Source: Candidatus Moraniibacteriota bacterium (GTDB lineage Bacteria; Patescibacteriota; Minisyncoccia; Moranbacterales; UBA9337). Taken from it: 44,489 bases of DNA. Below, piece by piece: positions 2,554 to 42,387 of the stretch (the stretch's first letter is position 1; each line of letters starts with the position of its first letter). The position numbers and the translations under genes were made by a program. The notes beneath the pieces were generated by a model that was not told the DNA's origin, ran no database searches, and worked only from the letters and a program-made list of their open reading frames with translations. The stretch lies in assembly GCA_034003925.1 (NCBI GenBank), contig JAVEXR010000001.1, positions 14,966 to 59,454 on the forward strand. Direction: 5' to 3'.

Positions 2554-2650
2554 ATTTTTATAATTTTAGCTTAAATATCATATTCTATTATGGCGGAAAG
2601 AGGGGGTTTTAGCAAGGGAGGAGAATGTTCTAAGTGTTGTAGATGTTCTA

Positions 2651-2666
2651 TCCGCCAGCTGGCGGA
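2651..2666. repeat. Perfect 16-bp palindrome TCCGCCAGCTGGCGGA
   Basis: Related copies are TCCGCCGGCTGGCGGA (9331-9346) and CCTCCAGTTGGCGGA (9173-9187). Confidence 0.85.
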
Positions 2667-2772
2667 GTTGGAAATGTTGGAGATAGGGGAGATGAGGAAA
2701 TGTAGATTAATTTTGAATTTCTAATTTTGAATTTTGAGTGAAATCTTAATTTCTTAATGACTCAAACATTCC

Positions 2773-2788
2773 GTCAGTCGCGACTGAC
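2773..2788. repeat. Perfect 16-bp palindrome GTCAGTCGCGACTGAC
   Basis: Read directly. It lies in the divergent spacer between clpC and the surface locus. Confidence 0.85.
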
Positions 2789-2907
2789 AGGTTGAAAATT
2801 TAAAGATAAACCCCCTCTCTAACTCTCCCCCTTGAGTACAAGAGGGAGAGGATTGACGCTTCCTCATTAGAAATTCGAAATTTAAAATCTACTGTTCTAT
2901 TGTTAAC

Positions 2908-2946
2908 ATGCTAACGTGCTGACATGCTAATATGTTCCATGCTCTA
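2908..2946. repeat. Phased octamer array (ATGYTAAN type)
   Basis: ATGCTAAC GTGCTGAC ATGCTAAT ATGTTCC ATGCTCTA. Confidence 0.8.
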
Positions 2947-3027
2947 TACTAAATGATTATAAAAAAGTAAATGCAATTATTAAATTTCCAATGGATTATT
3001 TTTTTCGTAAATCTTAAATCATACATC

Positions 3028-3056
3028 TTAAATCTTCTGAAATTGTGTGTTATAAT
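3028..3056 (+). promoter_or_regulatory. Extended -10 promoter candidate for the large surface-protein gene
   Basis: TGtTATAAT at 3048-3056. The 14-mer TGTTATAATTTAAA is repeated exactly at 6278-6291. The -35 (TTAAAT) is weak. Confidence 0.55.
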
Positions 3057-3118
3057 TTAAAGAGAAAAGATTCTTTTGAGCTATTTATCCCAATAGCCAT
3101 TTTAGTCTTAGATGAATT

Positions 3119-5314
3119 ATGAAAAACAAAAAAAGGAGGAGAATGATAGGGAAAATTTATTATTTACGAGCAATTTTAATTTGTTTTTTTTGCTCTTTTT
3201 TATTTTTAACCAGTGATGCCCAAGCAGAAACCCGAACCAAGACGGTGGAATATTTTTTGGGACAAAACCAAAATTCAGGGACAGGTTTGGCAGCTAATAC
3301 TTACTGGTCTCCGACAGCCGTGACGATTGATCTGCCAGATGCTATAACTTCAGCTAATGCTATCAAATCAGCTTGGATAGATTTTACTTTTCAAACTGCC
3401 ACTACAGGCGCTCCGGGAGTTGTAACAATCGGACTTACTCCTTCGGGCATGACGGAAAGTGTTTTTACCTCGGCTTCTTATTTGGCTTCTGGTGAAAACT
3501 ATGCCATAAGAGTCAAGCCTAATTTTACTTCAGCTGTAGCCTCTAGGTTTAATGCGGCTGGAGCTTATTCTTTTAGTTTTAGGGCTAAAGTAGGGAGAGT
3601 AGCTACTAAGATGGCTAGCGCTAAACTTTTTATAACTTACGATTATGATAGTCAAGCGGCTGTTCAGTTGAATACTGTAAAATATATGATCGGGCAAAAT
3701 AATGGAAACGTAGCAGTCGGTGCAACTGGAGTTACATTTACCTCTCCTAATCTATCAATTTCAGAGAGTGCTCCCACAGTCGTTTCAGCTTGGGCGGAAA
3801 TAAGGGGACAGATTCCCGCTACCGGAACAACTGACAATACATTTGCAATCAATTATGATTCGGATACTGTAAAGAATTATTATTTGGATAACGCGGGAGG
3901 CGCAGATACTCAGGCTATTTATATATTGCATTCCAAGAATACGATTACTCTCAATACGACGCACACGCTAAAAGTAGCTGCCACTACAGGTTACCAGATG
4001 AATCTTGTTTCAGCGGAACAAGTAATAACTTATAAATTTAATTATGCTAATTCTACAACACTGACTAAAACAAGGGATATATTATTGGGCTCTGACGGAT
4101 TTCAATCCTCATCGGTTTCTTTGGACATCGATGAGACGATAAATATTCCGGAAGATAATCATAGTTTTAAAAACATATTTTTGCGGGGAACAGCGCATAG
4201 CTCTACAGCGGGCAATCGTAATTTAGCGGCGCAGCTAGGGGGGACGACTCCGACTCCGACTTTAACGTTTGCCCAAACTGCTGCCACAGAAACGATGAAT
4301 AATTTTTGGATATTGTCAAATGATGTAAATAATTTATCAACCATGACTCAGGGAGACAATCAGATTGCCACTACTTTTACGGGGACGATGACTTCGCGAG
4401 CGTCTCAAGTAGTATTAACTTATTCTTATAATAAAAGCTCGAGTAGTGAATCAGGCAGCGCCCTTTTTTGGACAGAGCAACAGACGGCTTATGGAACCAC
4501 AGGGACACCCAGTGTGAATGTTTCGGTAGCCGGCACTACTCAGTCGGGTAGTTGGGATTCATATATTTGGGCTAATTCAGTAAACGGTAAGACAGCGGAT
4601 AAGGACGCATATATATCAACTCAACCAACAGTAACTACTGTGTATAATTGGAATTCAACTGGCGAATATCAATGGATTTTATTTTTTCATCGGAATATTT
4701 CTGGAGAGATTAAGGATAATGGAAACTATACAATAAATCTAAATTCAAAAGGAAGTAATGTCATGGCAGCGGTTATGGGAGTTTCCTATGAATATTACGC
4801 TCCAACTACAGGCTCTTTATTAGTGGATATCGTAGATTCAGGAGGTGCATCAATAGTTAGCCCTTCGGTTAGTTTTTCGAGTGCGAATTTTAATTGGGGC
4901 GCTCAGCAATCTACAGCTACTATGGGAATTCCAGTTCAAAAAATAAGAGTGACTAACACCACTACTACTCCTAGTTGGACGCTTTCAATCGCTGGGACAG
5001 TGAGCACTAATCTCTGGACTAGCGGAGGAAATACTTATAATTTTAATGGGGATGCAACTACCGGAAGATTAAATGTAAATGCTAGTGGCGCAACCGTAAC
5101 TCCGCAAGGCGGTTGCACTACAACGGGATTGACTAACGGATCATCAGCTTATTTTATCCAGAGCACTCAAGATTCAATCAATTTAATTACAGCCGGAGCT
5201 AGCGCTGGGACAAATTGCTATTGGGATATCACAGGCGTGAATATGACCCAAGATATACCGGCTGCACAATTAACTGGAAGTTATTCTTTGAATTTAATTC
5301 TGACAGTTATTTGA
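3119..5314 (+). CDS. Large secreted surface protein: signal peptide, four tandem ~115-135 aa modules, C-terminal WxL-like domain
   Basis: 731-aa ORF. N-terminal K/R-rich region, hydrophobic helix and AQA cleavage motif. Thr/Ser/Asn/Gly-rich beta-type composition. The last ~165 aa are paralogous to the next gene and include PSWTLSIAG and a terminal YSLNLILTVI. Confidence 0.85.
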   Translation: MKNKKRRRMIGKIYYLRAILICFFCSFLFLTSDAQAETRTKTVEYFLGQNQNSGTGLAANTYWSPTAVTIDLPDAITSANAIKSAWIDFTFQTATTGAPGVVTIGLTPSGMTESVFTSASYLASGENYAIRVKPNFTSAVASRFNAAGAYSFSFRAKVGRVATKMASAKLFITYDYDSQAAVQLNTVKYMIGQNNGNVAVGATGVTFTSPNLSISESAPTVVSAWAEIRGQIPATGTTDNTFAINYDSDTVKNYYLDNAGGADTQAIYILHSKNTITLNTTHTLKVAATTGYQMNLVSAEQVITYKFNYANSTTLTKTRDILLGSDGFQSSSVSLDIDETINIPEDNHSFKNIFLRGTAHSSTAGNRNLAAQLGGTTPTPTLTFAQTAATETMNNFWILSNDVNNLSTMTQGDNQIATTFTGTMTSRASQVVLTYSYNKSSSSESGSALFWTEQQTAYGTTGTPSVNVSVAGTTQSGSWDSYIWANSVNGKTADKDAYISTQPTVTTVYNWNSTGEYQWILFFHRNISGEIKDNGNYTINLNSKGSNVMAAVMGVSYEYYAPTTGSLLVDIVDSGGASIVSPSVSFSSANFNWGAQQSTATMGIPVQKIRVTNTTTTPSWTLSIAGTVSTNLWTSGGNTYNFNGDATTGRLNVNASGATVTPQGGCTTTGLTNGSSAYFIQSTQDSINLITAGASAGTNCYWDITGVNMTQDIPAAQLTGSYSLNLILTVI

Positions 5315-5339
5315 CTTTTTCTTTCAGATGGTGTATAAT
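5311..5339 (+). promoter_or_regulatory. Near-consensus sigma70-type promoter overlapping the stop codon of the large gene
   Basis: TTGACT (5311-5316), a 17-nt spacer, then TATAAT (5334-5339). Confidence 0.6.
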
Positions 5340-5369
5340 TAATCTGTAAAAGTAAAAAAGGCAGTAAAC

Positions 5370-5440
5370 GGGTGAAAATTCTTTTCCTCAAATCCTTAAA
5401 TAAATAGGGAATTGAAGAAATGAATGTTCACCCTTTTTTA
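5370..5440 (+). terminator. Long imperfect hairpin plus T-run between the large and small WxL-like genes
   Basis: GGGTGAA (5370-5376) pairs with TTCACCC (5427-5433). There is internal pairing, and TTTTTT follows. Confidence 0.6.
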
Positions 5441-5540
5441 ATTTAAAAAATAAGTAAATAAAAAAATAAAAAATTACTCTGTAGAAACATATATTATAAA
5501 ATAATAAATAAAAAATATGTTTTTCCAAGGGAATAAAAAT

Positions 5541-6206
5541 ATGAAAACAAAAGTAATCAACTTGGTAGCTAGAAGAATCGGAATTTTTTCCATGATTCTT
5601 TTGGGAATTGTAGCTATTAAGGCCTCTGCCAGCAATCAATCCCAGTTAAATCAGTCGATTAACGAGGGAGTAAAAGCAATCGATATCGTAGACGCAGGAG
5701 GAGCTACAGTAGCTAGTCCAGCAGTCTCTTTTGCTTCGACTACCTTCTCCTATGACACCCAAAATACTACTGGAACATTGGGATCTTCTGCACAAAGAAT
5801 TAGAGTTTTTAATCCTACTTCCACCTCTACTTGGACAGCTAGTATCGCGGGAAGTGCTACTGGTGCCACTTGGACAAATGGAACTGCCAATTACGATTTT
5901 AATGATGCCTCTGGATCTGGCTATACTGACGGAGCAGATACAGATAATTTAGGAGGACAGTTAGCAGTCAATCCAGCAGCAGGAACTTTGGCTGGCGTAT
6001 CAAGTTGTGCTACAACTAATGTTTCCTTGGGTTCAAATAGTGCTTTTGCTGAAGGTACAACAGATAGTATCACATTAGCTTCAGGAGCTTCAGGCGCAGC
6101 AACTTTCTGTCGATGGGATGTGACTAACATAGGTCTTACTCAAAAGTTACCAGCCGCTCAGGTAGCTGGAGCATATTCCTTGAACTTAGTCCTTTCCATA
6201 ATCTAA
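5541..6206 (+). CDS. Small secreted protein consisting of one WxL-like domain (paralog of the C-terminus of the 731-aa protein)
   Basis: The ORF track starts at 5517, but the ATG at 5541 gives a typical signal peptide (MKTKVINLV...AIKASA). The mature part aligns with aa 566-731 of the upstream protein: DIVDAGGATVASPAVSFAS, RIRVFN..STWTASIAG, FCRWDVTN..PAAQVAGAYSLNLVLSII. Confidence 0.85.
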   Translation: MKTKVINLVARRIGIFSMILLGIVAIKASASNQSQLNQSINEGVKAIDIVDAGGATVASPAVSFASTTFSYDTQNTTGTLGSSAQRIRVFNPTSTSTWTASIAGSATGATWTNGTANYDFNDASGSGYTDGADTDNLGGQLAVNPAAGTLAGVSSCATTNVSLGSNSAFAEGTTDSITLASGASGAATFCRWDVTNIGLTQKLPAAQVAGAYSLNLVLSII

Positions 6207-6234
6207 ACAAAAGAAAAATTTATACATATTAAAG

Positions 6235-6263
6235 AACATTCTCCTTTGTGAGGATGTTTTTTA
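6235..6263 (+). terminator. Rho-independent terminator after the small WxL-like gene
   Basis: AACATTCTC / GAGGATGTT stem with a 6-nt loop, then TTTTTTAATTT. Confidence 0.7.
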
Positions 6264-6277
6264 ATTTGCATAGTTTA

Positions 6278-6286
6278 TGTTATAAT
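6278..6286 (+). promoter_or_regulatory. Extended -10 promoter candidate for the DUF916-like gene
   Basis: TGtTATAAT about 50 nt upstream of ATG 6337 and just after the terminator at 6235-6263. Confidence 0.55.
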
Positions 6287-6336
6287 TTAAACAAATTTAA
6301 AATGACTTTTTTAAAATAAAATTATAAAAATAAATT

Positions 6337-8676
6337 ATGAAAACAAAAGTAGTATTGAGTATGTTTTTGTTTGCAGTAATATTTGCTCTAGCTCCAGGAC
6401 TCGTTACGGCTATCGAGTACGGACAAATGGGTGGCAGTCCGACTAACTTTGATCCTAACGTTCCTGATAGCAAATCCTGGTTTATTTATAAACTTGACCC
6501 CGGTACAACCAAAGAAGATTCTTTGACAGTGGTTAATCTTTTTGAAGACTCTTGGACAGCCATTATTTATGCAGCCGATAGTCTTAAAAGCTCTAGTGGG
6601 GGTTTTGCTCTTAGACAAATAACTGAACCCAAAGAAGCTGTAGGCTCTTGGGTAAAATTTTATCCCGAAGCTAAACCTGCTTTTGCCAATAAAGTCTTTG
6701 AAGATAAAAAAACCATTGACGAAGTGTGTAAAGTTTCTGGCGATGACCTAAAAAATAACTATGAGCTGAGTGAAGATAATATTTCTGAACTTAAGAAATG
6801 GTGTGAAGGAAAGGAATTGGTAGAAATGGATCTAAAATCCGGAGAGAAAAGGGAATTGCTTTTTGTGATCAGTATTCCCAAGGATGCCGATGTGGGAGAG
6901 CATACTGGAGGAATATTGATTCAAAAGAAAAGTAAGGACGAAGCTGCTCAGAGTGATGGCTCAAAAGTGATGCTGACTACTCGCGTAGGGGTGAGAATTT
7001 ATGAAACCGTGCCTGGAGACATAAATAAGACATTGGCTTTTTCTAATTTAAAAATAGCTAAAAATTTTGATGAATTTTATTTACCTTGGGATAAAGATAA
7101 AAAAGATAAGTTTAAAGAGTATTTAATCACTTCGGATATTAAAAATAATGGCAATATTAGCGTTGATTTTAGTGAAAAAATAACCATTGCCAATGCAATA
7201 ACTAGGAAAACAGAAAATATAGAAAATCGTAATTTTCAGGTTTTAAGAGGAGATAATTTTGTTTCAACTCTGTCTTGGAAAGGCCCGCGTTTTGGATTGT
7301 TGAGTTTTCAAAAAGAATATCGTTATGCAAATACTAACGGTGAAGAGCAAATAGTTCAATCTGAATTAATTAAGAAATGGTTTATTCCCTGGAGAGAGCT
7401 AGTAATAGTTACTTTTTTCGTTTTGATGGCGACGGGAGTCTATGTTTTTTGGAAAAGATATCAAAGAAAATATTATGGGGGAATCGGTTGGATAAATTAT
7501 CAGGTAGGAGAGGGGGAAACTGTGCAGAGTTTAATCAAGAAATTCTCAGTGGATTGGAATGTTTTTGTTAAGACTAATAAATTAAAGAAGCCTTATCTAT
7601 TAGAAGCTGGACAAATGATAAGGGTGCCTAAAAATAATTCTGGAGACTTGCCCGAAGAAGACTTTTTCTCAAAAGAAGAAACTAACCCAATTAAGAATTC
7701 ACCGGAGAAAATTATTTTAACTCCCAAATCTCTGACTGATGGAGTAGCTAATAAAGATGAATTATCTGACGAAGATATTTTGAACAGAAAAGATCTTTTT
7801 GACGGCTCACCGGAAAAAGAAAATATTAAAGATGATGTGGTTGAGATAGCAGACATTAAAAAAGATACTAAGGATACTCTGATGAAAAATGATATTGTCG
7901 ACAGTTCTTTATTTTTTGCTAGTGATGCTTCGAAAAAAGAAGAAAGTTTGGAGGTAATCAAGGAGGAAGAGGTATTGCCTGTGGCTAAAACTAAAAAAAC
8001 AATTGTAAATGCTCAGCCTCTTAGGAAAAATGCTGATATTCGAAAACCACAAGCAACTATTGTTGAAGATGTGGAGAGTGATTTTAAATCTATTAAAGAA
8101 AGTGTGCCTGAGAAAAATGATGATTTAATAATTGAAGATGGTGCGGCAACTGTTTTGGGCAATAAGGATGATAGTAAGAGTTATTTTAAATTAGTGATTA
8201 TAGCCTTAGCCTCGGTAATTATTATTTTATTGGGGACAGTTATTTATCTGCTTATGAATAACAAAGCAGCAGAAAAGACAGTGATTCAATCAGCACCAGC
8301 CAATAGTGAGAGCAATCAAGGGTCTGCTCCATCAGAAAATGTAGCGGTGGAAGAAAATAAAGAAGAGGCCACCGAAGAGGAACCGCTTGACCCGCTAAAA
8401 ATGACAATTGAGGTCTATAATGCGAGCGGAGTGGCTGGGGCAGCTGGTAAAGTAAAAGACTTTTTAGTGAGTAAAAAATATGAGAGCGTAGAAGCTAAAA
8501 ATTATCCTGGTGATGAGGTAGCTGGTTCAACTATCTATTATAAAGAGGAAAGAATGAAAGAAGAAGCTCAGTGGTTAGCTGATATGCTAAAGGATAGCGA
8601 TATTGATGCTCAGGTTAAATTAGCCACCACAGAAGAAGAAAAAAGTGCTGACGTGGTCATTATCTTAGGAAAATAA
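6337..8676 (+). CDS. Membrane protein: DUF916/DUF3324-like (WxL-interacting type) ectodomain, TM, LysM, acidic linker, TM, LytR_C domain
   Basis: 779 aa with a signal peptide. The N-terminal pattern SPTNFDP..SKSWFIYKLDPGTTKEDSLTVVNL...SSSGGFAL, GEKRELLFVISIPKDADVGEHTGGILIQ and VGVRIYE matches DUF916/DUF3324 cell-surface proteins as I recall them. TM1 is about aa 354-372. LysM is YQVGEGETVQSLIKKF..LLEAGQMIRVP. TM2 is about aa 617-640. The C-terminal LytR_C pattern is IEVYNASGVAGAAGKVKDFL...ADVVIILGK. Confidence 0.8.
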   Translation: MKTKVVLSMFLFAVIFALAPGLVTAIEYGQMGGSPTNFDPNVPDSKSWFIYKLDPGTTKEDSLTVVNLFEDSWTAIIYAADSLKSSSGGFALRQITEPKEAVGSWVKFYPEAKPAFANKVFEDKKTIDEVCKVSGDDLKNNYELSEDNISELKKWCEGKELVEMDLKSGEKRELLFVISIPKDADVGEHTGGILIQKKSKDEAAQSDGSKVMLTTRVGVRIYETVPGDINKTLAFSNLKIAKNFDEFYLPWDKDKKDKFKEYLITSDIKNNGNISVDFSEKITIANAITRKTENIENRNFQVLRGDNFVSTLSWKGPRFGLLSFQKEYRYANTNGEEQIVQSELIKKWFIPWRELVIVTFFVLMATGVYVFWKRYQRKYYGGIGWINYQVGEGETVQSLIKKFSVDWNVFVKTNKLKKPYLLEAGQMIRVPKNNSGDLPEEDFFSKEETNPIKNSPEKIILTPKSLTDGVANKDELSDEDILNRKDLFDGSPEKENIKDDVVEIADIKKDTKDTLMKNDIVDSSLFFASDASKKEESLEVIKEEEVLPVAKTKKTIVNAQPLRKNADIRKPQATIVEDVESDFKSIKESVPEKNDDLIIEDGAATVLGNKDDSKSYFKLVIIALASVIIILLGTVIYLLMNNKAAEKTVIQSAPANSESNQGSAPSENVAVEENKEEATEEEPLDPLKMTIEVYNASGVAGAAGKVKDFLVSKKYESVEAKNYPGDEVAGSTIYYKEERMKEEAQWLADMLKDSDIDAQVKLATTEEEKSADVVIILGK

Positions 8677-8722
8677 AGATTTGTATTTTTTATAAAAGTA
8701 AAATTATAAAGTAGTTAAAAAA

Positions 8723-9088
8723 ATGCGGGTGAACTTTTTTTTAAAGACAATTTGGATGATAGTTTTGATATGTAACTTTCAAATTGCTTCGGCTGATAGA
8801 GCTGTGGCGAGCAGTTTAAATGTGAATCAAAGCATCTTGCCGGTAAAATTCGTTTACTTAAGTGGTCATGGCTATATCAATGATATCTGGAGTAATGTAG
8901 GGGAACGGGATGATTTGTATGTAGTAAAATTCTTTAATGAGGACAAGGAAGAAGTGCCTCTGACAGAGGGATTGTTTTCGCAATATGCCGAGAAATCTCA
9001 AAAAGTGATAGTGCAGAGAGATATCACTCAAAGTAATCAATTCTTGAAAGGTGATAAATTGACTGAGGAAATATTAACTATCGTTTAG
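8723..9088 (+). CDS. Small secreted hypothetical protein, last gene of the surface-protein locus
   Basis: 121-aa ORF with a signal-like N-terminus (FLKTIWMIVLICNFQIASA). It starts 47 nt after the upstream stop with no intervening terminator, and a strong terminator follows it. No recognisable family. Confidence 0.6.
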   Translation: MRVNFFLKTIWMIVLICNFQIASADRAVASSLNVNQSILPVKFVYLSGHGYINDIWSNVGERDDLYVVKFFNEDKEEVPLTEGLFSQYAEKSQKVIVQRDITQSNQFLKGDKLTEEILTIV

Positions 9089-9106
9089 GCAAATCGAAAT
9101 TTAAAA

Positions 9107-9138
9107 AACCATCCCGATAGTGAGGATGGTTTTTTTTA
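9107..9138 (+). terminator. Rho-independent terminator ending the surface-protein locus
   Basis: AACCATCC / GGATGGTT stem with a 9-nt loop, followed by a T8 run. Confidence 0.85.
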
Positions 9139-9289
9139 TTGTCTAAGCCTCTTTATAATTTCTACTCGCTCACCTCCAGTTGGCGGATTGTCGAAGTGGT
9201 CGGGTAAATAAGAAAGGTTCATAAAGTTAATACGAGTATGTCATGCTGAACTCGATTCAGTATCTCAGGATTTATAAATGAGATCCCAC

Positions 9290-9311
9290 ACCTGCCTGCC
9301 GGCAGGCAGGT
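9290..9311. repeat. Perfect 22-bp palindrome ACCTGCCTGCCGGCAGGCAGGT
   Basis: Read directly. Degenerate copies are at 42112-42131 (CCTACCTACCGGCAGGCAGG) and 42030-42046. Confidence 0.9.
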
Positions 9312-9419
9312 AAATGAATTTCTAACGCTCTCCGCCGGCTGGCGGATCCCTAAGAAATTTTACTTTCTCCGCCTTGGCAAGCTAGAGCGAGACAGGTGGA
9401 TGACACCGCTGGGGTGTCA

Positions 9420-9610
9420 GTTTCTTAACGCTCCCTTCGACCTGCCCGCCATTGCCAAATCAAATGTCTTAAATAGTTTGTTTAATGTGCAGAATATATT
9501 GAGCTTGTGGATTATTAATAGATAAGGCTGTGGCAGGCGGGGTTGATTTATTTTATTTTATCTGCCCGCCTGCAATGCAAGCAAAGCTCTGCGGGCAGGT
9601 AAGGTGTGGA
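9420..9610. repeat. Noncoding backbone repeat, copy A, interrupted by GC-rich inserts
   Basis: GTTTCTTAACGCTCCCTTCGACCTG (9420-9444), GATTTATTTTATTTTATC (9545-9562) and GTAAGGTGTGGA (9599-9610) match 42217-42271. Two extra segments are absent there. Confidence 0.8.
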
Positions 9611-9649
9611 TGGGATACATAATATGTTTTAATCTTAAAGCTCACAAAG

Positions 9650-9690
9650 CGGGTAAAATTAAAACCGCTAATTAACGCTAGCGGTTTTAA
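9650..9690 (-). terminator. Hairpin terminator downstream of the RND operon
   Basis: Perfect 10-bp stem AAAACCGCTA (9661-9670) / TAGCGGTTTT (9679-9688). A short U-run follows on the minus strand. Confidence 0.55.
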
Positions 9691-9699
9691 TTGATGTTT

Positions 9700-12600
9700 T
9701 TATTTAGTTTTATCTTTGACGAAGGTCATAAATAGAACCGGCACTAAAAAGAGAGTTAGAAATGAGGATAGGATTAACCCAAATATTACCGCGCTTCCTA
9801 AGGCTCGCCATAGTTCATTGGAAAGAGTGATAGGGATAATACCGAAGATAGTACAGATAGAGGTAACAAAGATGGCTTCCAATCTTGATTTACCGGCATC
9901 AATAATGGAAACATCAAAGGGAATACCACTATTGATATTGAGATTTATCTTATCAATCAGAATGATAGCATTTTTAACTACTATCCCAAAAAGCGCCAAT
10001 ATTCCGATTAAGCCAGGAAAGCTTAGACTGATTCCAAAGATAGCCAGACCCAAAAATGTCCCAATGAGCGCCAATGGCAAAGTAACTAAAACAATGGCGG
10101 ATTGTTTAAAGGAATTAAATTGAATAATCATTGTAGAAAAAATGAGTATTCCGGCAATGATCATTGCTCTAAGAATTGAGGCGACCGATTCAGCGTTTTG
10201 TTCATTTTCTCCTCCATAGGTGATTTCGTATCCTTCTGGTAATTCGTATTGTTGGGATAATTTCTCTTGGAATTGAGCTAAGATTTGATTGGAGTTGGTC
10301 CTCTTATCGGCTCCTGCAGAAAGATAGACCGTTCTTTTTTGATCAATGCGGTTTATGGTTTCGATAGAGGGTTTTAATTCAATCTTGGCCACATCTTTGA
10401 GATAAACAGGTTCGCCCAATTTGTTGATAATTTGCAGGTTTTGAATAGCATCTAGAGAAGGAATTTTTTCTTCATTGAAACTGGCTACCACATCGATGTC
10501 TTTATTGTCTTTTATTACGGTAGAGATAGTAGTACCTGAGATAGCTGTGCGTAGAGTCATGCCTACCAAAGAAGCATTAAGGTTATAAAGCTCCATTTTG
10601 GCGGTATCTAGTTTAAATGTGTATTCAGCTGGGGATTCTTTAAAGGATATGTCAGTGTTAATGGTGCCTTCAATTGAATCTAAGATTTTTCTTAAGTCGT
10701 TGGCGATGCTGTCTAGTTCTTGCAGATCGTCGCCTATGATTTGAGCTTGGAAGGCGGAACCAGAAGGTGGTCCTCCAGAGGGACTGCTAATATTTATGGT
10801 AGCTTCTTGGATGTCTTTGACATCATTGCGTAAACTGTCGGAAATTTCATAAGATTTTCTTTCTCTTTCTTTGGTGGGAGAGAGCTTTATTGTGATAGAG
10901 GCTGTGTTGGAAGTGTCTTGAGCTATGCCGATATTTCCTCCTTGTCCAGGATTACCAACTAGAGTAGAAAAATTAATTATCTCTGGATATTGGTAGAGTT
11001 TTTCTTCTACCTTTTGGATAATTTTATCTGATTGCCCAAGGTTTAGCCCGACAGGAGCGCGCATACTGATATATATTTCTTCGCTATCTGAGGTGGGGAA
11101 AAATTCTGTCTTAACAATGCCCGAAATTGGGAGAGATACAGCGATAGTAAATAAAAGTACAATAGCGCCAATAAAGGTGAAGCGAGATTTCTTGGTGCAC
11201 AAAACTTTTTTGAGATATTTCTCATAAATTGGCAGAACTCTCTCAAAGTTAATAATTCCATGAATCAGTTTTTGAGAAAAAGTTCCAGCTTCTCGATTGC
11301 CCTGAGCATAAAGCTTGGCTTTGATAGCTTCATCATCGCGCCATTCTTTTTTAACCAAAACGGCGTTTTCAGCCAAAACGTTCTTTCCTCTTGTGAAATA
11401 CCAAGACAACATCCAGATAGCGATAGCTAAGAAAAAGATGCTAAAGATATAACCATACACATTGTGCAAAGTGATAATAAAAATTCCCAGAAAGATTAAG
11501 GAAAAAAGGATAACGGCAAAGAAATTTTTAGTCAGACGAATTCTCTCCAGTACAGCGGCCAATGGATGGTTTATCATCAGGGCGATAAGAAGTGATGAAA
11601 CTAAAGTTACTGAAACAGTAATAGGAATTGATTTGATATATTCTCCAATTATTCCTGAAGCCATTAGCAGGGGTAAAAATGCCCATACAGTAGCCAAGGT
11701 AGTGGTGGTAAGGACGATTTTAAAATCGCGAAGCACCAAAAGAACAGCCTCTTCGGGAGTAAATTTGCCACTTTTCATATATTGCTTGGTGGCGCTAACT
11801 ACCACGATGGCGTCATCTACCAGTAGTCCCAAAGCCAAAAGTAATGAAAAGATCGAAAGAAAATTCAAAGAAGTCCCGGTAGAAAGCATCACTCCGAAAG
11901 TGGCAAAAAACACCAATGGAATAGCTAATCCAGCTACGAAAGCTTCCTTAAGACCCACCACTAAAAACAAAATTCCTACCACTAAAACTAAAGTTATCAA
12001 AAAATCATGAGCCAGTTGCTCAAAATCTTGTCTGATTAAATCAGCCTGATTGATGGTGGTGGCATAATCCAAATCTTCTGGTAATTTTTTTAATTCATTA
12101 TCAATGGTTTCTTGCGCTTGAGCAACTGTGTCCAAAATTGAGCTGCCGGTTCTTTTGATAATCTGGATACTGATAGAATTTTGAGGAGAATTTCCGTTTT
12201 GAGAAAAACGGGACAAAATCTTTTTTTCAATAGATTGTTCTTTGACCTCGGCAATATCTCTTAAATAAACAATAGCTCCATTGCCAGTATGGGAAACAGG
12301 GATGTTAGCTAAAGCTTGCGCATCAAAAAAACGTGCGTCTGTTCTTACTGGATAATTATATTCTTCACCTTCGAAATTTCCAGCGGGAATAGCTCTATTG
12401 GTAGCGATAATAGCTTGATTAGCCTGGTCTATAGAGAGATTAAAAAAAGATAGTTTTTGAGGATCGTAAGCCACACTAAATTCACGTTCATCTCCTCCAG
12501 AAATTTTTATTTCTCGAATGCCGGAGATTTTTTCTAATTCATCTTGTATATTTTCAGCAAATTCTCGAAGAGTAAAACCATCAAAAGGTCCCGTTAACTC

Positions 12601-13128
12601 AAAGGTAACTACGGGCGTATCGTCAAAAGATATTTCCGTTACCTGAGGATCTTCGGCATCTTCGGGGATTTCATTTCTGATATCAGCTAATTTATCCCTT
12701 AATTTCCTGACAGAATTATCGATATCCTCATTGGCGTTAAACTCTACCGTTACTGAGGAAAAAGAATTAGTTGATTGAGAAGTGATTTTATCTATCCCTG
12801 AGATGCCAGAAATATGAGTTTCAATTTTTTTGGTAACCAGCTCTTCTACGTCAGTGGGTGAGGCGCCGGGATAAATATCTGTCACTACCGCAATCGGAAT
12901 TTTAACTTCTGGATTAGATTCTCGCGGTAATTTAATATAAGAATAAATTCCCCAACCAGAAAGAATAAGAATCATTAAAATGACAACTCTAAAGTTAACC
13001 ACAAAAAAATTCAACCAGCTTTTCTTAAGCTCTGGGTCAAATTCGAGTTTCTCTAAATAAACTAAATCACTGGATTTAATCTTATGAGATTTGGGAGAAG
13101 ATTTTTCTTCGGGTATGATATTTTTCAT
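9700..13128 (-). CDS. RND-family efflux transporter (AcrB/AcrD/AcrF type)
   Basis: 1142 aa with a 12-TM, two-large-loop architecture. Typical RND motifs are present (LALGLLVDDAIVVV, GILALFGIVVKNAIILID). Confidence 0.9.
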   Translation of the reverse strand: MKNIIPEEKSSPKSHKIKSSDLVYLEKLEFDPELKKSWLNFFVVNFRVVILMILILSGWGIYSYIKLPRESNPEVKIPIAVVTDIYPGASPTDVEELVTKKIETHISGISGIDKITSQSTNSFSSVTVEFNANEDIDNSVRKLRDKLADIRNEIPEDAEDPQVTEISFDDTPVVTFELTGPFDGFTLREFAENIQDELEKISGIREIKISGGDEREFSVAYDPQKLSFFNLSIDQANQAIIATNRAIPAGNFEGEEYNYPVRTDARFFDAQALANIPVSHTGNGAIVYLRDIAEVKEQSIEKKILSRFSQNGNSPQNSISIQIIKRTGSSILDTVAQAQETIDNELKKLPEDLDYATTINQADLIRQDFEQLAHDFLITLVLVVGILFLVVGLKEAFVAGLAIPLVFFATFGVMLSTGTSLNFLSIFSLLLALGLLVDDAIVVVSATKQYMKSGKFTPEEAVLLVLRDFKIVLTTTTLATVWAFLPLLMASGIIGEYIKSIPITVSVTLVSSLLIALMINHPLAAVLERIRLTKNFFAVILFSLIFLGIFIITLHNVYGYIFSIFFLAIAIWMLSWYFTRGKNVLAENAVLVKKEWRDDEAIKAKLYAQGNREAGTFSQKLIHGIINFERVLPIYEKYLKKVLCTKKSRFTFIGAIVLLFTIAVSLPISGIVKTEFFPTSDSEEIYISMRAPVGLNLGQSDKIIQKVEEKLYQYPEIINFSTLVGNPGQGGNIGIAQDTSNTASITIKLSPTKERERKSYEISDSLRNDVKDIQEATINISSPSGGPPSGSAFQAQIIGDDLQELDSIANDLRKILDSIEGTINTDISFKESPAEYTFKLDTAKMELYNLNASLVGMTLRTAISGTTISTVIKDNKDIDVVASFNEEKIPSLDAIQNLQIINKLGEPVYLKDVAKIELKPSIETINRIDQKRTVYLSAGADKRTNSNQILAQFQEKLSQQYELPEGYEITYGGENEQNAESVASILRAMIIAGILIFSTMIIQFNSFKQSAIVLVTLPLALIGTFLGLAIFGISLSFPGLIGILALFGIVVKNAIILIDKINLNINSGIPFDVSIIDAGKSRLEAIFVTSICTIFGIIPITLSNELWRALGSAVIFGLILSSFLTLFLVPVLFMTFVKDKTK

Positions 13129-14713: not shown

Positions 14714-14751
14714 AATTTATTCTATTAAAGTTACTGGGTTATTAACTAGAT

Positions 14752-14769
14752 TAGTTTACTCGTAAACTA
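14752..14769. promoter_or_regulatory. Perfect inverted repeat, candidate MarR operator
   Basis: TAGTTTAC-TC-GTAAACTA lies 39 nt upstream of the marR-family start codon (14713, minus strand). Confidence 0.55.
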
Positions 14770-14885
14770 TTTTTTTGTCAAGAATGAAGTTATGTAAACA
14801 TATGAACATAGTAGCTCCGCTATCCGTCAATTGGTCGGAGGCGGATTAGAAGTCAAATATCTATGTTTATAAGAGACAAGGACAC

Positions 14886-15002
14886 AAGAAACAAGGATAC
14901 AAATAAGAAACAAATTAAAAATCACAAATAATACTAATTCTAAATTTGAAAATTGTATATTGAATATCGCTTGGAAATTGTTTCTTGTATTCTTGTTTCT
15001 TT
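14886..15002. repeat. Imperfect 27-31 bp inverted repeat separated by about 58 bp
   Basis: AAGAAACAAGGATACAAATAAGAAACAAATT (14886-14916) against AAATTGTTTCTTGTATTCTTGTTTCTT (14975-15001, through 15002 if the next T is counted). Confidence 0.7.
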
Positions 15003-15099
15003 TAAAAAATGTAGTAATTGAGCAATTTTAATTTTTTATTTACTTAAAACCTTTCCTATATTACAATTAGTAATAAACAAGAAAGTTTAAAAATCGTAT

Positions 15100-16299
15100 A
15101 TGTATTACCAAGATTCTAGAAAATTAAAGATTTTTTTGGAAATACTAGCTCTAGTGGTAGTACTTTTGGGTTTGACGATATTTTTGTGGCAAAGGAGTCC
15201 AGATAAAGGAATTGGAGATGAGTATATTACCTTTGAAAATAAAGGTGATGAATATTGGGATGATGATCTAAAGATGAGCACGTTGTTGCCGGTAGAAAAT
15301 GTCACGCCACCGCCACCCCCTCCACAAATGGAGAAGATGAAAAGTAATGGTTGTGTAGCTGATGGTCTTTTGAATGGTTATGTGGATGGCACAGGAGGCT
15401 CGATAGATATGATTAATCGCTCAAAATGTTATTATTTGCACCGCTCTATTGAAACTTGGTTAGAACCGCCGGATTTTCAGGAGATTAAGGAAAATATGCA
15501 AAAAATAGAGAAGAAAGAGGTGGTTTATGGAATGTTTATCGCCGAAGCAATCAGCACTAAGTCGGACTATTATTATGAAATAGGGGAGAGAGATTTTGAT
15601 TTTGATAAAATGTGTCGGTCGGGAAGCAAAAACTTTTGGGGTGAACATACTTGCAAGCCTTCTTTGGCTAAAAAGGAGTATCAACGCTACGTCTTGGATA
15701 TTACTAAAAAAGCTATGGACTTGGGCGTGCAAAGTTTTATGTTTGGACAGGTTTTTCACCAAGACTATATTTCAGATCCTTCTGTGGGCATTGTTTTGGA
15801 AAAAATGAGGAGATATGCTGATTTAAAAGGTATGAAAATTGTAATTGGGGCTCAAACTAATGATATTGAGGATGAGAGTTATCTGAGACAGTTTGATTTT
15901 ATCGAAGGTGGGGTAGGTCTAAACACGAATGGAATCATTGAAGGTGGTCCTTGCTATTCGCGTTGGTGGAAACAAGAAGGAGACTGGTGTTGGGCTCTCC
16001 TTTGGCATGACAAATTTAAAAGCAAGGCTAATAATGTCTTTACTCACTTGGATTGGAGTGGAAAAGTCGGAGATGATATGAGCACTTTTTCTTTGATGAC
16101 TAAAGAAGAGCGAGCCAATGCGCTTAAGCGCTTGGATAGTTATTTTGCTCAACGAGATGTGGGATTTTTGATGCCAATGGTGGCAGTTTTGCCTAAGGAA
16201 AACGGAGGCTGTCATGGCAAATCTAAGAAATTTTATTCAGCAGATAATAAATATTCATGTGATGATGAAGACGTGATAAATAGCTTATTGGGGAAATAA
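15100..16299 (+). CDS. Hypothetical N-terminally anchored extracytoplasmic protein, Cys/Trp-rich
   Basis: 399-aa ORF with one N-terminal TM (ILALVVVLLGLTIFLW) and a poly-Pro linker (PPPPPPQ). The body alternates beta/alpha-like segments and might be a TIM-barrel hydrolase, but I cannot assign a family. Confidence 0.6.
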   Translation: MYYQDSRKLKIFLEILALVVVLLGLTIFLWQRSPDKGIGDEYITFENKGDEYWDDDLKMSTLLPVENVTPPPPPPQMEKMKSNGCVADGLLNGYVDGTGGSIDMINRSKCYYLHRSIETWLEPPDFQEIKENMQKIEKKEVVYGMFIAEAISTKSDYYYEIGERDFDFDKMCRSGSKNFWGEHTCKPSLAKKEYQRYVLDITKKAMDLGVQSFMFGQVFHQDYISDPSVGIVLEKMRRYADLKGMKIVIGAQTNDIEDESYLRQFDFIEGGVGLNTNGIIEGGPCYSRWWKQEGDWCWALLWHDKFKSKANNVFTHLDWSGKVGDDMSTFSLMTKEERANALKRLDSYFAQRDVGFLMPMVAVLPKENGGCHGKSKKFYSADNKYSCDDEDVINSLLGK

Positions 16300-16302
16300 G
16301 AA

Positions 16303-16437
16303 TAGTTTGTAAGGTTCATAAAGTTTTTAAGGTTTGTAAAGTGGAGGAGTAATGGGAATTATTTATTATTTAGTTAATGAGTTAAGAGTGAGAGTGAATC
16401 AAGAATGAAACCTGAATGCAATTTAGAAAGTGCTAAT
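16303..16437. repeat. Dispersed intergenic repeat, copy 1 (about 135 bp)
   Basis: It shares these segments with 29027-29195, in the same order: the 9-mer array, TTATT(T)ATTATTTAGTTAATGA(G/A)TTAAG, and GAATGAAACCTG. Confidence 0.75.
16306..16341. repeat. 9-bp tandem array x4 (TTYNTAARG)
   Basis: TTTGTAAGG TTCATAAAG TTTTTAAGG TTTGTAAAG. Confidence 0.85.
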
Positions 16438-16472
16438 ATGTTAAAATGTTAACGTGCTAAAATGAATCTATG
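16430..16472. repeat. Phased octamer array running into the start codon
   Basis: GTGCTAAT ATGTTAAA ATGTTAAC GTGCTAAA ATGAATCT, with the ATG start as the sixth phased unit. Confidence 0.85.
16455..16463 (+). promoter_or_regulatory. Extended -10 (TGcTAAAAT) 6 nt upstream of the methyltransferase ATG
   Basis: The -10 ends at 16463 and the ATG is at 16470. No SD is present, which implies a leaderless transcript. Confidence 0.5.
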
Positions 16473-18047: not shown

Positions 18048-18158
18048 TAATTTTGAATAAAAAAAGCCGTTTCACCCATTGTTTTTAGCCCTTTTAGGGG
18101 TTAAAAGCTGCGAAACGACGCTATCTTTTAAACTTTTTCAACTTCTTACTACAACCTA

Positions 18159-18187
18159 ATTATAGCACGAAATAAAGTAAAAAGCAA
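18159..18187 (-). promoter_or_regulatory. Promoter candidate for the CAP-domain gene
   Basis: Minus strand reads TTGCTT, a 17-nt spacer (ending TGc), then TATAAT. Confidence 0.5.
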
Positions 18188-41952: not shown

Positions 41953-41990
41953 CCTCAAGAGTTCTGTATGAATCTTGGGGTTTTATTATT
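41953..41990 (+). terminator. Rho-independent terminator after the TSP3-repeat gene
   Basis: CCTCAAGA / TCTTGGGG stem followed by TTTTATTATT. Confidence 0.7.
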
Positions 41991-42216
41991 GGTTAGAAAA
42001 AACACCGACCAAGATTGGTGTGACTGTCTCCTGTCCGGTAGGCAGGTTTATAAAATAATATTTTATCGCCAATAATTTTCTCACTAACTTTTTTGACAGC
42101 AAAAGAAGTTACCTACCTACCGGCAGGCAGGCAAAAAACTGCCACACGTACTACTAAAATAAATAAAGCTAACTCTCATCACTAAAACTTTGGGTTCCGC
42201 TTCGCTCCATGACAAA

Positions 42217-42271
42217 GTTTCTTAACGTTCCTTTCGAGCTGATTTATTTTATTTTATCCGTAAAGTGTGGA
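42217..42271. repeat. Noncoding backbone repeat, copy B, uninterrupted
   Basis: GTTTCTTAACGTTCCTTTCGAGCTG-ATTTATTTTATTTTATC-CGTAAAGTGTGGA is contiguous here. Confidence 0.8.
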
Positions 42272-42358
42272 CCTTGAATTCAGAGTATATTCAAGCTTAA
42301 AACCTGTAAAGCGAGTAAAATGAAAACCATTAGCATTGATTGCAGTTTCTATTTTAGT

Positions 42359-42387
42359 TTGACATTCGTTGATAAATATGGTATACT
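42359..42387 (+). promoter_or_regulatory. Consensus sigma70-type promoter of the orphan lipoprotein cassette
   Basis: TTGACA (42359-42364), exactly 17 nt, then TATACT (42382-42387). Confidence 0.65.

What the first reader, a model, noticed from the sequence alone, without database searches (positions are those of the whole stretch)
9139..9699. GC-rich noncoding patchwork homologous to a second spacer, with apparent hairpin insertions into a shared backbone
The 560-bp spacer between two convergent operons has no credible ORF but is visibly G+C-richer than coding DNA. It shares an ordered backbone with 42100-42271. First comes the palindrome CCTGCCTGCCGGCAGGCAGG (9291-9310), which matches the degenerate CCTACCTACCGGCAGGCAGG at 42112-42131. 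About 110-130 nt later comes GTTTCTTAACG(C/T)TCC(C/T)TTCGA(C/G)CTG. Then come GATTTATTTTATTTTATC and GTAA(G/A)GTGTGGA. In copy B these blocks are contiguous (42217-42271). In copy A they are split by a ~100-bp segment (9445-9544) bounded by CCCGCC...GGCAGGCGGGG. They are split again by a 36-bp hairpin (9563-9598) whose 8-bp arms are CTGCCCGC (9562-9569) / GCGGGCAG (9591-9598). That is the signature expected if small GC-rich palindromic units (REP/MITE-like, motif CCTGCC[CT]GCC) insert into an older repeat. Alternatively the backbone could be an ncRNA gene family with variable stems.
Basis: seen in the sequence. Interest (0 to 1): 0.62.

Follow-up and report, generated by a model that had tools for sequence, protein, structure and literature searches.

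The report
Nested hairpin repeats in a spacer
The gene-free gap is a pile-up of selfish non-coding repeats in an ultra-small (CPR) bacterium: a lineage-specific dispersed repeat has been invaded by small GC-rich hairpins, and one of them, an exact 20-base palindrome, also turns up as a clean insertion in Flavobacterium and in many uncultured phages.

Summary
With the two extra segments cut out, copy A (9406-9670) aligns to copy B (42074-42335) as one 114-nt match (78%, E 1e-20). A model built only from other genomes finds both copies.

The backbone is a roughly 200-260-nt non-coding repeat of a narrow Moraniibacteriota clade. In metagenome contigs its depth is 5-280 times that of its flanks. 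It is absent from the same spacer in relatives with 84-87% AcrB identity, where the spacer is only 60-70 nt.

The GC-rich pieces are true insertions with exact boundaries and no target duplication:
- I2: 9441-9541 (101 nt), itself carrying a nested 73-nt piece.
- I3: 9563-9598 (36 nt).
- P1: the 20-nt palindrome, at 9291-9310 and 42112-42131.

Other copies and strains show the empty sites.

P1 is unexpectedly not lineage-specific. It occurs at 57 sites in IMG/VR contigs with GC from 0.33 to 0.70, while an arm-swapped control gave 0. One site lies in a phage tRNA-Met gene whose close relative lacks exactly those 20 bases. P1 also occurs in cultured Flavobacterium album.

No transposase, RNA family or conserved ORF was found. 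The insertion mechanism is unknown.

The parts
9102..9136 (+). Hairpin plus T-run terminator of the upstream plus-strand operon (T1). It marks the left edge of the patchwork.
   Evidence: Sequence. The inverted repeat 9098-9140 appears.
9240..9405 (.). Left module. It is a copy of a second hairpin-type repeat (GTCAT..ATCTC ... GAGAT..GATGACA). In L003 and L022 the 3' arm is about 45 nt. Here it is swollen to about 125 nt by P1 and other GC-rich hairpins, for example TCCGCCGGCTGGCGGA at 9331-9346.
   Evidence: Alignment of copies. Sequences.
9291..9310 (.). P1: a perfect 20-nt palindrome, CCTGCCTGCCGGCAGGCAGG. It behaves as a discrete insertion unit.
   Evidence: The same word is a precise 20-nt insertion elsewhere.
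9401..9419 (.). Hairpin TGACACC-GCTG-GGTGTCA. It is built on the TGACA that copy B has unpaired. L003 has TGACAT..ATGTCA at the same place.
9419..9440 (.). Backbone block AGTTTCTTAACGCTCCCTTCGA.
9441..9541 (.). I2: a 101-nt insertion, CCTGCCCGCC...GGCAGGCGGG. It has P1-like arms with foreign DNA in the centre. The inner part 9458-9530 is a further nested piece.
   Evidence: Empty site 'ttcgagttgattt' in L025 and L001. An X4 contig joins 9440 to 9542, and another joins 9457 to 9531. An X5 copy has a 29-nt hairpin, CCCGCC..GGCGGG, at the same site.
9542..9562 (.). Backbone block GTTGATTTATTTTATTTTATC.
9563..9598 (.). I3: a 36-nt hairpin insertion with arms CTGCCCGC / GCGGGCAG.
   Evidence: Empty site 'ttatccgtaaag' in copy B, L001, L005 and L025. 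The same insert sits at the same site in L022 (98.5% identity over 67 nt).
9599..9670 (.). Backbone block GTAAGGTGTGGA plus the right-hand tail.
   Evidence: 73% identity over 70 nt to 42260-42328. nhmmer hit.
9657..9692 (.). Two-way terminator hairpin (T2) just after the AcrB stop codon at 9700-9702.
42030..42046 (.). Degenerate P1-like palindrome CCTGTCCGGTAGGCAGG, lying left of copy B.
42074..42335 (.). Copy B of the backbone repeat. The high-copy core is 42074-42277 and the tail runs to about 42335.
   Evidence: The depth jump in Logan contigs falls exactly at 42074 and 42277. nhmmer E 8e-56.
42112..42131 (.). P1 variant CCTACCTACCGGCAGGCAGG, inserted between 'gaagtta' and 'caaaaaac'.
   Evidence: It shows as a 20-nt gap against L025. 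L001 has the empty site. L005 has it filled at the same base.

Best explanation
The spacer is a nested pile-up of non-coding, probably selfish, repeats. It is not a gene.

Layer 1 is a roughly 200-260-nt dispersed intergenic repeat, the 'backbone'. It runs from TTCTTACTAACTTTTTTGRCAGC to GTAAAGTGTGGA plus a tail. It is confined to a narrow clade of Moraniibacteriota and is present in many copies. One copy landed between the terminators of two convergent operons (copy A). Another landed between a terminator and the next promoter (copy B).

Layer 2 is a family of short GC-rich hairpin units with arms CCTGCC(C/T)GCC / GGC(A/G)GGCAGG. These were copied into the repeats at exact positions, with no target duplication and no loss of flanking bases. 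The units are P1 (arms only, 20 nt), I3 (arms plus a 20-nt loop) and I2 (arms plus a centre).

Layer 3 is a 73-nt AT-rich piece sitting inside the centre of I2.

Shown here: the boundaries, the empty and filled sites, presence/absence among strains that differ by less than 1% in the neighbouring gene, the high copy number, and the presence of P1 as an exact 20-nt insertion in unrelated hosts.

Inferred: the hairpins are moved by machinery acting in trans on folded single-stranded DNA. That could be an HUH/Y1-type enzyme of the kind proposed for REP elements, or a copy-and-repair process that uses an existing copy as template. Recombination or gene conversion among backbone copies then shuffles the variants.

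Any effect on the flanking operons, such as extra termination or RNA stabilisation, would be secondary.
For: Orthologous spacer
- It is 611 nt in the window and in L024 (AcrB DNA 99.1% identical). It is only 70 nt in L026 (AcrB protein 87% identical) and 60 nt in L027-29 (84%), where it holds a single two-way terminator.

Empty and filled sites
- I2: 'ttcga|101 nt|gttgattt' against 'ttcgagttgattt' in L025 and L001.
- I3: 'ttatc|36 nt|gtaagg' against 'ttatccgtaaag' in copy B, L001 and L005, and 'ttattcgtaaag' in L025. The site is filled in L022.
- P1: 'gaagtta|20 nt|caaaaaac' in copy B, against 'gaagttacaaaaaac' in L001 and L025.
- Sources.
- Logan contigs independently show joints 9440->9542 and 9457->9531, and a different 29-nt CCCGCC..GGCGGG hairpin at the I2 site of another copy.

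Copy number
- Summed contig depth over 42074-42277 is 209-1387 against about 43 in the flanks in run X1. It is 430-794 against about 15 in X2, and 733-12322 against 24-43 in X3. The edges are sharp and many different flanks are seen.
- L001 holds two copies plus a fragment within 1.2 kb.

Non-coding and weakly structured
- Stop codons occur in all six frames of the backbone, and the short ORFs are not conserved.
- There is no Rfam match.
- Copy B of the backbone (still carrying its P1) folds at z -1.15 and -1.48 on the two strands.

P1 as a discrete unit elsewhere
- It has 57 sites in 48 IMG/VR loci. An arm-swapped control palindrome gave 0.
- Phage tRNA-Met: L064 carries P1, and L082/L084 lack exactly those 20 nt.
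- In L027, P1 sits in the leader of the CAP-domain gene. The window, L024 and L030-32 lack it there.
- Flavobacterium album holds one repeat family both with and without P1.
Against: - No mobilising enzyme was found. There is no transposase or HUH domain among the window's ORFs or in the P1-richest viral contig. No gene is shared by P1 loci apart from phage structural genes.
- The whole genome could not be searched. Copy number therefore rests on metagenome contig depth, which also sums other organisms.
- L025 has a different left-hand neighbour gene. Its insert-free copy may be a recombinant of two backbone copies, or an assembly join, rather than the ancestral state of copy A.
- I3 with its flanks is 98.5% identical between two different loci. 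That fits gene conversion or copying of an already-invaded master at least as well as a second independent insertion.
- No movement has been observed directly.
Confidence: 0.72

Rival explanations
1. The backbone is a family of small non-coding RNA genes. The GC-rich pieces are tolerated or selected expansions of variable stems.
For: - A 55-nt core is 88-100% conserved between copies from different genomes.
- Several internal inverted repeats exist: AACTTTTTTG/CAAAAGAAGTT, AAACTTTG/CAAAGTTT and CCACAC/GTGTGG.
- RNAalifold on four insert-free copies scores z about -4 against column shuffles.
- Each copy lies between a terminator and the next unit.
- An earlier scan note (e1-821453) read a related cassette as an sRNA gene.
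Against: - There is no Rfam match.
- The single-sequence fold is not better than shuffles (z -1.15 and -1.48).
- The alifold signal is equal on both strands (-3.9 and -4.1), which is what DNA inverted repeats give.
- No promoter is conserved on either strand.
- The left half is swapped for unrelated modules in A, L003 and L022.
- The element is high-copy and breaks assemblies.
- It is absent from the same spacer in relatives with 84-87% AcrB identity.
- The inserted hairpins are shared with unrelated sequences and with other phyla.
Confidence: 0.1
2. Nothing transposes. The palindromes arise in place by template switching or slippage during replication, and then spread among backbone copies by gene conversion.
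For: - The hairpin at 9401-9419 is built by adding an inverted copy next to a pre-existing TGACA. L003 has a differently spelled equivalent.
- I3 with its flanks is nearly identical at two loci.
- P1's arms are a short tandem repeat, (CCTG)2.5, followed by its complement.
- About 10 of 55 viral P1 sites lie in heptamer arrays.
Against: - The same exact 20-mer occurs in unrelated flanks, in hosts with GC from 0.33 to 0.70, at about 40 times the background of GC-hairpins with comparable arms. An arm-swapped palindrome of the same composition has 0 sites.
- The GC-rich content of I2 and I3 cannot be derived from the AT-rich flanks.
- The tRNA-Met pair differs by exactly the 20 nt.
Confidence: 0.1
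3. The hairpins are host-serving cis elements, such as extra terminators or insulators between convergent operons, RNA-stabilising stem-loops, or protein-binding sites. On this reading their spread reflects selection rather than selfish copying.
For: - Copy A lies between convergent operons, the classic position of E. coli REP/BIME elements (my own knowledge).
- P1, the I2 arms and I3 carry no differences between the window and L024, while the rest of the spacer differs by 3.3%.
Against: - The hairpins have no U-run. T1 and T2 already terminate both operons.
- Close relatives manage with a 60-70-nt spacer.
- Zero differences in about 90 nt is only weakly below expectation (about 3-4 expected).
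- P1 also sits inside tRNA genes and inside other repeats, where a terminator would be harmful or pointless.
Confidence: 0.08

Closest known systems
REP / BIME elements of enterobacteria, and REPIN-RAYT systems (Bertels & Rainey 2011, PMC3116915)
   Same: They are short GC-rich palindromic units in intergenic DNA, often between convergent genes. They combine with other motifs into mosaics, have no target duplication, are present in many copies, and are themselves targets for further insertions.
   Different: - P1 has no GTAG-type head.
- No RAYT was found, though it was not testable genome-wide.
- P1 is a perfect 20-nt palindrome with no loop.
- REP sequences are species-specific, whereas P1 is letter-identical in CPR bacteria, Flavobacterium and phages of high-GC hosts.
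Small dispersed repeats (SDR) of Nostoc and other cyanobacteria. Source: Elhai et al. 2008, Genome Res 18:1484, listed as reference 43 of PMC3116915. The paper was not held, so its content is from my own knowledge.
   Same: SDRs are very small (21-27 nt) hairpin-forming units. They are inserted precisely without target duplication, into heptamer repeat arrays, into other repeats and into a structured RNA. P1 shows all of these behaviours.
   Different: The sequence and hosts differ. SDR families are described within cyanobacteria. P1 crosses phyla and occurs in phage genomes. I could not check whether any SDR resembles P1.
GC clusters of yeast and other fungal mitochondrial genomes (Wu & Hao 2015, PMC4478555)
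   Same: They are GC-rich palindromic units scattered in an AT-rich, compact genome. Presence and absence turn over quickly between strains. Clusters merge and nest to form new ones. They are exchanged between species.
   Different: They occur in organelles, not bacteria, and their sequences are unrelated. A putative target-site duplication has been reported for GC clusters (PMC4478555, introduction). None is seen here.
MITEs and mosaic intergenic repeats (ERIC, BOX, Correia/NEMIS)
   Same: The backbone is a 200-260-nt, high-copy, non-coding, modular intergenic repeat limited to one lineage. I2 has imperfect terminal inverted repeats.
   Different: There is no target-site duplication. The backbone has no terminal inverted repeats. 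No parent insertion sequence is known.

Membership tests
REP/REPIN (RAYT-mobilised) | Short imperfect palindrome, extragenic, in many copies per genome | tested here: inconclusive
   The units are palindromic and extragenic here. Only 5 units lie in this 44-kb window and about 8 in 179 kb of related loci. A genome-wide count was not possible.
REP/REPIN (RAYT-mobilised) | Conserved 5' GTAG-type head next to the stem | tested here: not met
   Canonical P1, I2 and I3 begin with CCTGCC. GTAG appears only inside the arm of the C-to-T variant (GGTAGG).
REP/REPIN (RAYT-mobilised) | A RAYT (Y1/HUH, PF01797) gene in the same genome, often flanked by the repeats | not testable with these tools
There is none among the window's ORFs or in the genes called on the fetched relatives' contigs.
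MITE | Terminal inverted repeats | tested here: met
   Met for the hairpin units (CCTGCCCGCC / GGCAGGCGGG and so on). Not met for the backbone, whose two ends are unrelated.
MITE | Target-site duplication of fixed length | tested here: not met
   Empty and filled pairs differ by exactly the unit: the tRNA-Met pair, copy B against L025, and I2. Flank repeats at viral sites range from 0 to 14 nt and track the periodic flanks.
Very small dispersed repeats (SDR-type) | Unit under 30 nt, hairpin-forming, precise insertion without duplication, found nested in tandem heptamer arrays and in other repeats | tested here: met
   The unit is 20 nt. Precise insertions are shown. About 10 of 55 sites lie in heptamer arrays whose phase is restored when P1 is removed. 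P1 is nested in the backbone and in the Flavobacterium repeat.
Very small dispersed repeats (SDR-type) | Sequence relationship to one of the published SDR families | not tested
   The paper was not held. No open paper contains the P1 word.
Structured ncRNA family | Fold more stable than chance, on one strand, supported by compensatory changes | tested here: not met
   Single-sequence z scores are -1.15 and -1.48. The alifold z is about equal on both strands. There are too few diverged copies for a covariation test.
Structured ncRNA family | Match to a curated RNA family, or evidence of a transcript | tested here: not met
   There is no Rfam hit at gathering score or at E below 0.1. No RNA run holds the stretch, so transcription itself remains untested.

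The most novel reading that the evidence does not exclude
P1 (CCTGCCTGCCGGCAGGCAGG) is a cross-phylum mobile 'nano-element'. On this reading a 20-base perfect palindrome is copied, letter for letter and without target duplication, into genomes as different as CPR bacteria (36% GC), Flavobacterium, and phages with up to 70% GC. The sites include tRNA genes and the centres of other repeats. That would imply a widespread, still unidentified machinery, possibly phage-borne, that recognises or templates a bare hairpin. The Moraniibacteriota patchwork would then be one visible deposit of that process.
Probability: 0.35. Interest if true: 0.8.

Novelty: new variant of a known kind. Interest (0 to 1): 0.6.

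Why it matters
- CPR bacteria have tiny genomes, which I understand to be seen as streamlined (my own knowledge). Yet here a spacer has grown from about 60 nt to about 610 nt through three nested layers of repeats. Strains differing by less than 1% in the neighbouring gene differ in which layers are present.
- The repeats break short-read assemblies at exactly these points. They sit at one apparent rearrangement junction (L025). They therefore affect how complete and how correct metagenome-assembled CPR genomes are.
- The 20-nt palindrome is the more general point. If one bare hairpin can spread across phyla and into tRNA genes, it is among the smallest mobile DNAs known to me.
- P1 occurs in a cultured Flavobacterium, so the mechanism can be studied at the bench.

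Tried and rejected
There is therefore no genome-wide copy count and no RAYT search.
- Small-peptide idea (MTKFLNVPFELIYFILSVKCGP and relatives): rejected. The ATG belongs to a hairpin arm. L001 and L005 lack it, L001 is frameshifted, and all six frames carry stops.
- Rfam at gathering and at permissive thresholds: only chance-level hits.
- RNA-seq runs: none hold either copy.
- Backbone in viral contigs, GenBank phages and plasmids: nothing.
- The genome contigs and metagenome-contig scans each returned only 2 true copies, plus chance hits inside GC-rich coding DNA.
- P1 target preference: there is no conserved flanking word (my reading of the flanks listed) and no enrichment in predicted hairpin loops (16 of 55 sites against 150 of 550 controls, p 0.75).
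- Gene linked to P1: clustering ORFs around the 48 viral loci gave only portal and capsid families of one phage subgroup. The P1-richest contig shows only a terminase.
- P1 in cultured collections: a few near-matches inside GC-rich plasmid genes, none in E. coli, none exact in GenBank phages.
- Arms with a loop (CCTGCCTGCC N1-31 GGCAGGCAGG, and the C-variant arms): heterogeneous generic GC-hairpins. They serve only as background.
- Literature: no open paper contains the P1 word, and none treats hairpin repeats in Moranbacteria.
Full report
**Setting**

The window comes from a Candidate Phyla Radiation bacterium of the Moraniibacteriota (Moranbacteria). The nearest homologues of its AcrB-type pump and the contigs that carry the same repeat are labelled that way, and earlier notes on this genome agree.

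Copy A fills the gap between a 121-aa gene that ends at 9088 on the plus strand and an AcrB-family gene at 9700-13128 on the minus strand. That gene is the last of a MarR-HlyD-AcrB operon. Copy B lies between a gene ending at 41915 and a consensus promoter at 42359-42387.

Every statement about other copies therefore rests on public contigs and on Logan contigs of public sequencing runs.

**The observation**

The spacer has only a 41-aa ORF. It is GC-richer than its surroundings, at 0.45-0.485 against 0.357 for the window.

- blastn gives three collinear matches between A and B. When 9440-9542 and 9563-9598 are cut out, they merge into one 114-nt match at 78% identity with E 1.2e-20.
- A profile built only from copies in two other genomes (L001, L005) finds copy B at E 8e-56. 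It finds copy A in two pieces, 9406-9444 and 9541-9670.

Three corrections are needed.
1. The homology continues rightwards to about 9670 and 42335.
2. The segment boundaries are 9441-9541 (101 nt) and 9563-9598.
3. The two copies of the 20-nt palindrome are not homologous positions. The DNA between the palindrome and the first shared block does not align, and the left half of copy A belongs to a different module.

**The backbone**

Pattern scans found true copies in two other Moraniibacteriota genomes (L001, L003) and on two metagenome contigs (L005, L022). All other hits were chance matches in GC-richer coding DNA.

Alignment shows a B-type unit in B, L001, L005 and L025. It runs from TTCTTACTAACTTTTTTGRCAGC, through AGTTTCTTAACGYTCCYTTCGA, GYTGATTTATTTTATTTTATCC and GTAAAGTGTGGA, to a tail ending near AAAGCGGGTAAAAT. 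In A, L003 and L022 the left half is replaced or preceded by a second hairpin-type repeat (GTCAT..ATCTC / GAGAT..GATGACA).

Evidence on its nature:
- Copies lie in unrelated places. These include downstream of AcrB, upstream of the same operon's MarR gene in L022 (where this window has other sequence at 14714-15100), and on both sides of a small gene in L001.
- Logan contigs of four metagenomes fragment exactly here. Summed depth jumps at 42074 and drops after 42277, from about 43 to 209-1387 in run X1, from about 15 to 430-794 in X2, and from 24-43 to 733-12322 in X3. Many different flanks are seen. Parts of copy A behave the same way. Depth sums all organisms in a sample, so I read this only as 'many copies', very roughly 10-30 per genome equivalent.
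- About 90 kb from relatives with AcrB 82-87% identical contains no copy.
- There is no match in GenBank phages or plasmids.
- Stop codons lie in all six frames, and there is no Rfam match.
- Copy B, which still carries its P1, folds no better than shuffles (z -1.15 and -1.48).
- A consensus fold of four insert-free copies is better than column shuffles, but equally so on both strands (z -3.9 and -4.1). That is what DNA inverted repeats give.

**The spacer in relatives**

AcrB homologues led to the orthologous contigs.

- L024 has AcrB DNA 99.1% identical, with 2.2% divergence at third codon positions. It has the same 611-nt spacer with 3.3% differences. None of those differences fall in P1, in the I2 arms or in I3.
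- L026 (AcrB protein 87% identical) and L027-29 (84%) have only 70 and 60 nt between the same two genes, holding one two-way terminator. The whole patchwork is therefore an addition in this lineage.
- L025 has AcrB DNA 99.3% identical to the window. It carries the right-hand tail of copy A joined to an uninterrupted B-type backbone without I2 or I3, and its next gene is different. This is either a rearrangement between two backbone copies or an assembly join at the repeat. Either way it supplies the insert-free state.

**The GC-rich pieces are precise insertions**

- I2: copy A reads 'ttcga|CCTGCCCGCC...GGCAGGCGGG|gttgattt', while L025 and L001 read 'ttcgagttgattt'. An X4 contig joins 9440 directly to 9542. 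Another skips 9458-9530, which shows the AT-rich centre is a further nested piece. A copy in X5 carries a different 29-nt CCCGCC..GGCGGG hairpin at the same site.
- I3: copy A reads 'ttatc|TGCCCGCC..GCGGGCAG|gtaagg', against 'ttatccgtaaag' in copy B, L001 and L005 and 'ttattcgtaaag' in L025. L022 has I3 at the same site, 98.5% identical over 67 nt, but has no I2. The two events are therefore separable.
- P1: copy B and L005 have it between 'gaagtta' and 'caaaaaac'. L001 and L025 have 'gaagttacaaaaaac', and blastn reports a single 20-nt gap.
- Conversely, relative L027 has P1 in the leader of its CAP-domain gene, where this window, L024 and L030-32 do not.

None of these events shows a target duplication.

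All the units share arms of the form CCTGCC(C/T)GCC / GGC(A/G)GGCAGG. P1 is the two arms abutted, I3 has a 20-nt loop, and I2 has a centre that has itself been invaded. The window holds five units, all in these two spacers.

**P1 outside this lineage**

A scan of IMG/VR viral contigs for CCTRCCTRCCGGYAGGYAGG returned 48 loci with 57 sites, and 42 of those carry the exact word. The contigs have GC from 0.33 to 0.70, and some hold 3-7 copies.

Controls:
- The arm-swapped palindrome of identical composition returned none.
- P1's arms separated by any loop of 1-31 nt returned 20 loci in total.
- The C-variant arms returned 43 loci with loops of 2-30 nt, and none with the arms abutted.
- The exact P1 therefore stands about 40-fold above a background of generic GC hairpins.

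Insertion evidence elsewhere:
- One site is in a phage tRNA-Met gene. L064 reads ...CCACGAGG|P1|TCGCCGGTTCGAATCC. L082 and L084 carry the same tRNA and the same downstream gene and read ...CCACGAGGTCGCCGGTTCGAATCC. ARAGORN still calls the 92-nt version a tRNA-Met.
- About 10 of 55 non-redundant sites lie inside heptamer arrays whose phase is restored when P1 is removed.
- Two loci belong to cultured Flavobacterium album, through a 100% protein match. There P1 sits inside some members of a 'CTCCCCTCTCC..GGAGAGGGG CTGGGGGTGAGG' repeat and not others. A related Flavobacterium has more than ten copies of that repeat and no P1.

P1 is absent from 5,426 E. coli genomes and is essentially absent from GenBank phages and PLSDB plasmids. 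No open paper contains the word.

**Mechanism**

I found no flanking target word in the flanks listed. There is no preference for predicted hairpin loops, and no gene shared by P1 loci other than phage structural genes. The window has no transposase domain.

Precise insertion without duplication, hairpin ends and nesting in other hairpin repeats fit single-strand, hairpin-guided transposition in trans. That is the model for IS200/IS605 elements and the one proposed for REP elements with RAYT enzymes (my own knowledge; PMC3116915). The same features fit the unexplained very small repeats of cyanobacteria (Elhai et al. 2008, my own knowledge) equally well.

Template switching clearly contributes to some hairpins. 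The one at 9401-9419 is built on a pre-existing TGACA. Template switching cannot, however, explain one exact 20-mer in unrelated contexts.

I therefore commit to 'nested, trans-mobilised hairpin repeats inside a dispersed selfish repeat'. The enzyme remains unknown.

**Comparison and verdict**

The nearest known things are:
- REP/BIME mosaics;
- the small dispersed repeats (SDR) of cyanobacteria;
- mitochondrial GC clusters (PMC4478555);
- for the backbone, ERIC/BOX-type mosaic repeats.

MITE membership fails on target duplication. REP membership fails on the GTAG head and is untested for the RAYT gene.

The patchwork itself is a new variant of a known kind. Earlier scan notes on other Moranbacteria genomes describe similar repeat families. 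I treat those notes as leads only.

The part a specialist would not expect is the cross-phylum, letter-exact 20-nt palindrome with clean empty and filled sites, including one in a tRNA gene.

Noticed in passing
window 18059-18168 (minus strand); L027 1-300: A conserved leader lies upstream of the CAP-domain (PF00188) gene. It has the promoter TGCTATAAT, then a long hairpin CCGTTTCRC...GTGAAACGG followed by a U-run. An inner hairpin changes on both sides between relatives (cccct/aggg, gcccc/gggc, tgcc/ggca). This looks like an attenuator or an undescribed cis-regulatory RNA. In L027 it carries a P1 insertion.
   Followed up: partly
window 2811-2851: A GC-rich hairpin, CCCCCTCTC..CTCTCCCCC TTGAGTACAA GAGGGAGAGG, is absent from the orthologous spacer of L024. 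It resembles the repeat that hosts P1 in Flavobacterium album. It may be a second hairpin family shared across phyla.
   Followed up: partly
window 2751-3046 and 16290-16468: These two spacers are replaced wholesale between the window and L024, although flanking genes are 97-99% identical. Both carry phased 8-nt ATGYTAAN arrays or TAAAGTT-type arrays. These array spacers turn over very fast.
   Followed up: partly
L025 6090-6971: A strain with 99.3% identical AcrB DNA has a different gene next to AcrB. It ends ...IIRYIQEMRKQAGYEVDNRI..., which I guess is an aminoacyl-tRNA synthetase-like C-terminus (untested). A hybrid backbone copy sits at the junction. This is either repeat-mediated rearrangement or an assembly join at the repeat.
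   Followed up: partly
window 41986-42349: An X3 contig (depth about 20, against 24-43 for the flanks) joins 41985 to 42350. It skips the whole copy-B block, with 4 nt of microhomology at the joint. So the block is an insertion/deletion difference between strains; the letters between the two sides were not reported.
   Followed up: no
L064 2239-2330; L082, L084: A phage tRNA-Met gene carries P1 as a 20-nt extra arm in the variable loop. Relatives have the ordinary 72-nt gene. L075 has P1 in the D-loop of a truncated tRNA-like stretch.
   Followed up: yes
L094 632-673, L101 2003-2044, L090 4637-4686: These P1 copies have another palindrome inserted exactly at their centre (for example GGCAAGGCAGGCCTGCCTTGCC). 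This is the same nesting pattern as I2 in the window.
   Followed up: no
L001 4950-6149: Two backbone copies and a fragment flank a small gene (about 119 aa, 5702-5344 on the minus strand). The motif GTAAAGTGTGG recurs three times to the right of one copy.
   Followed up: no
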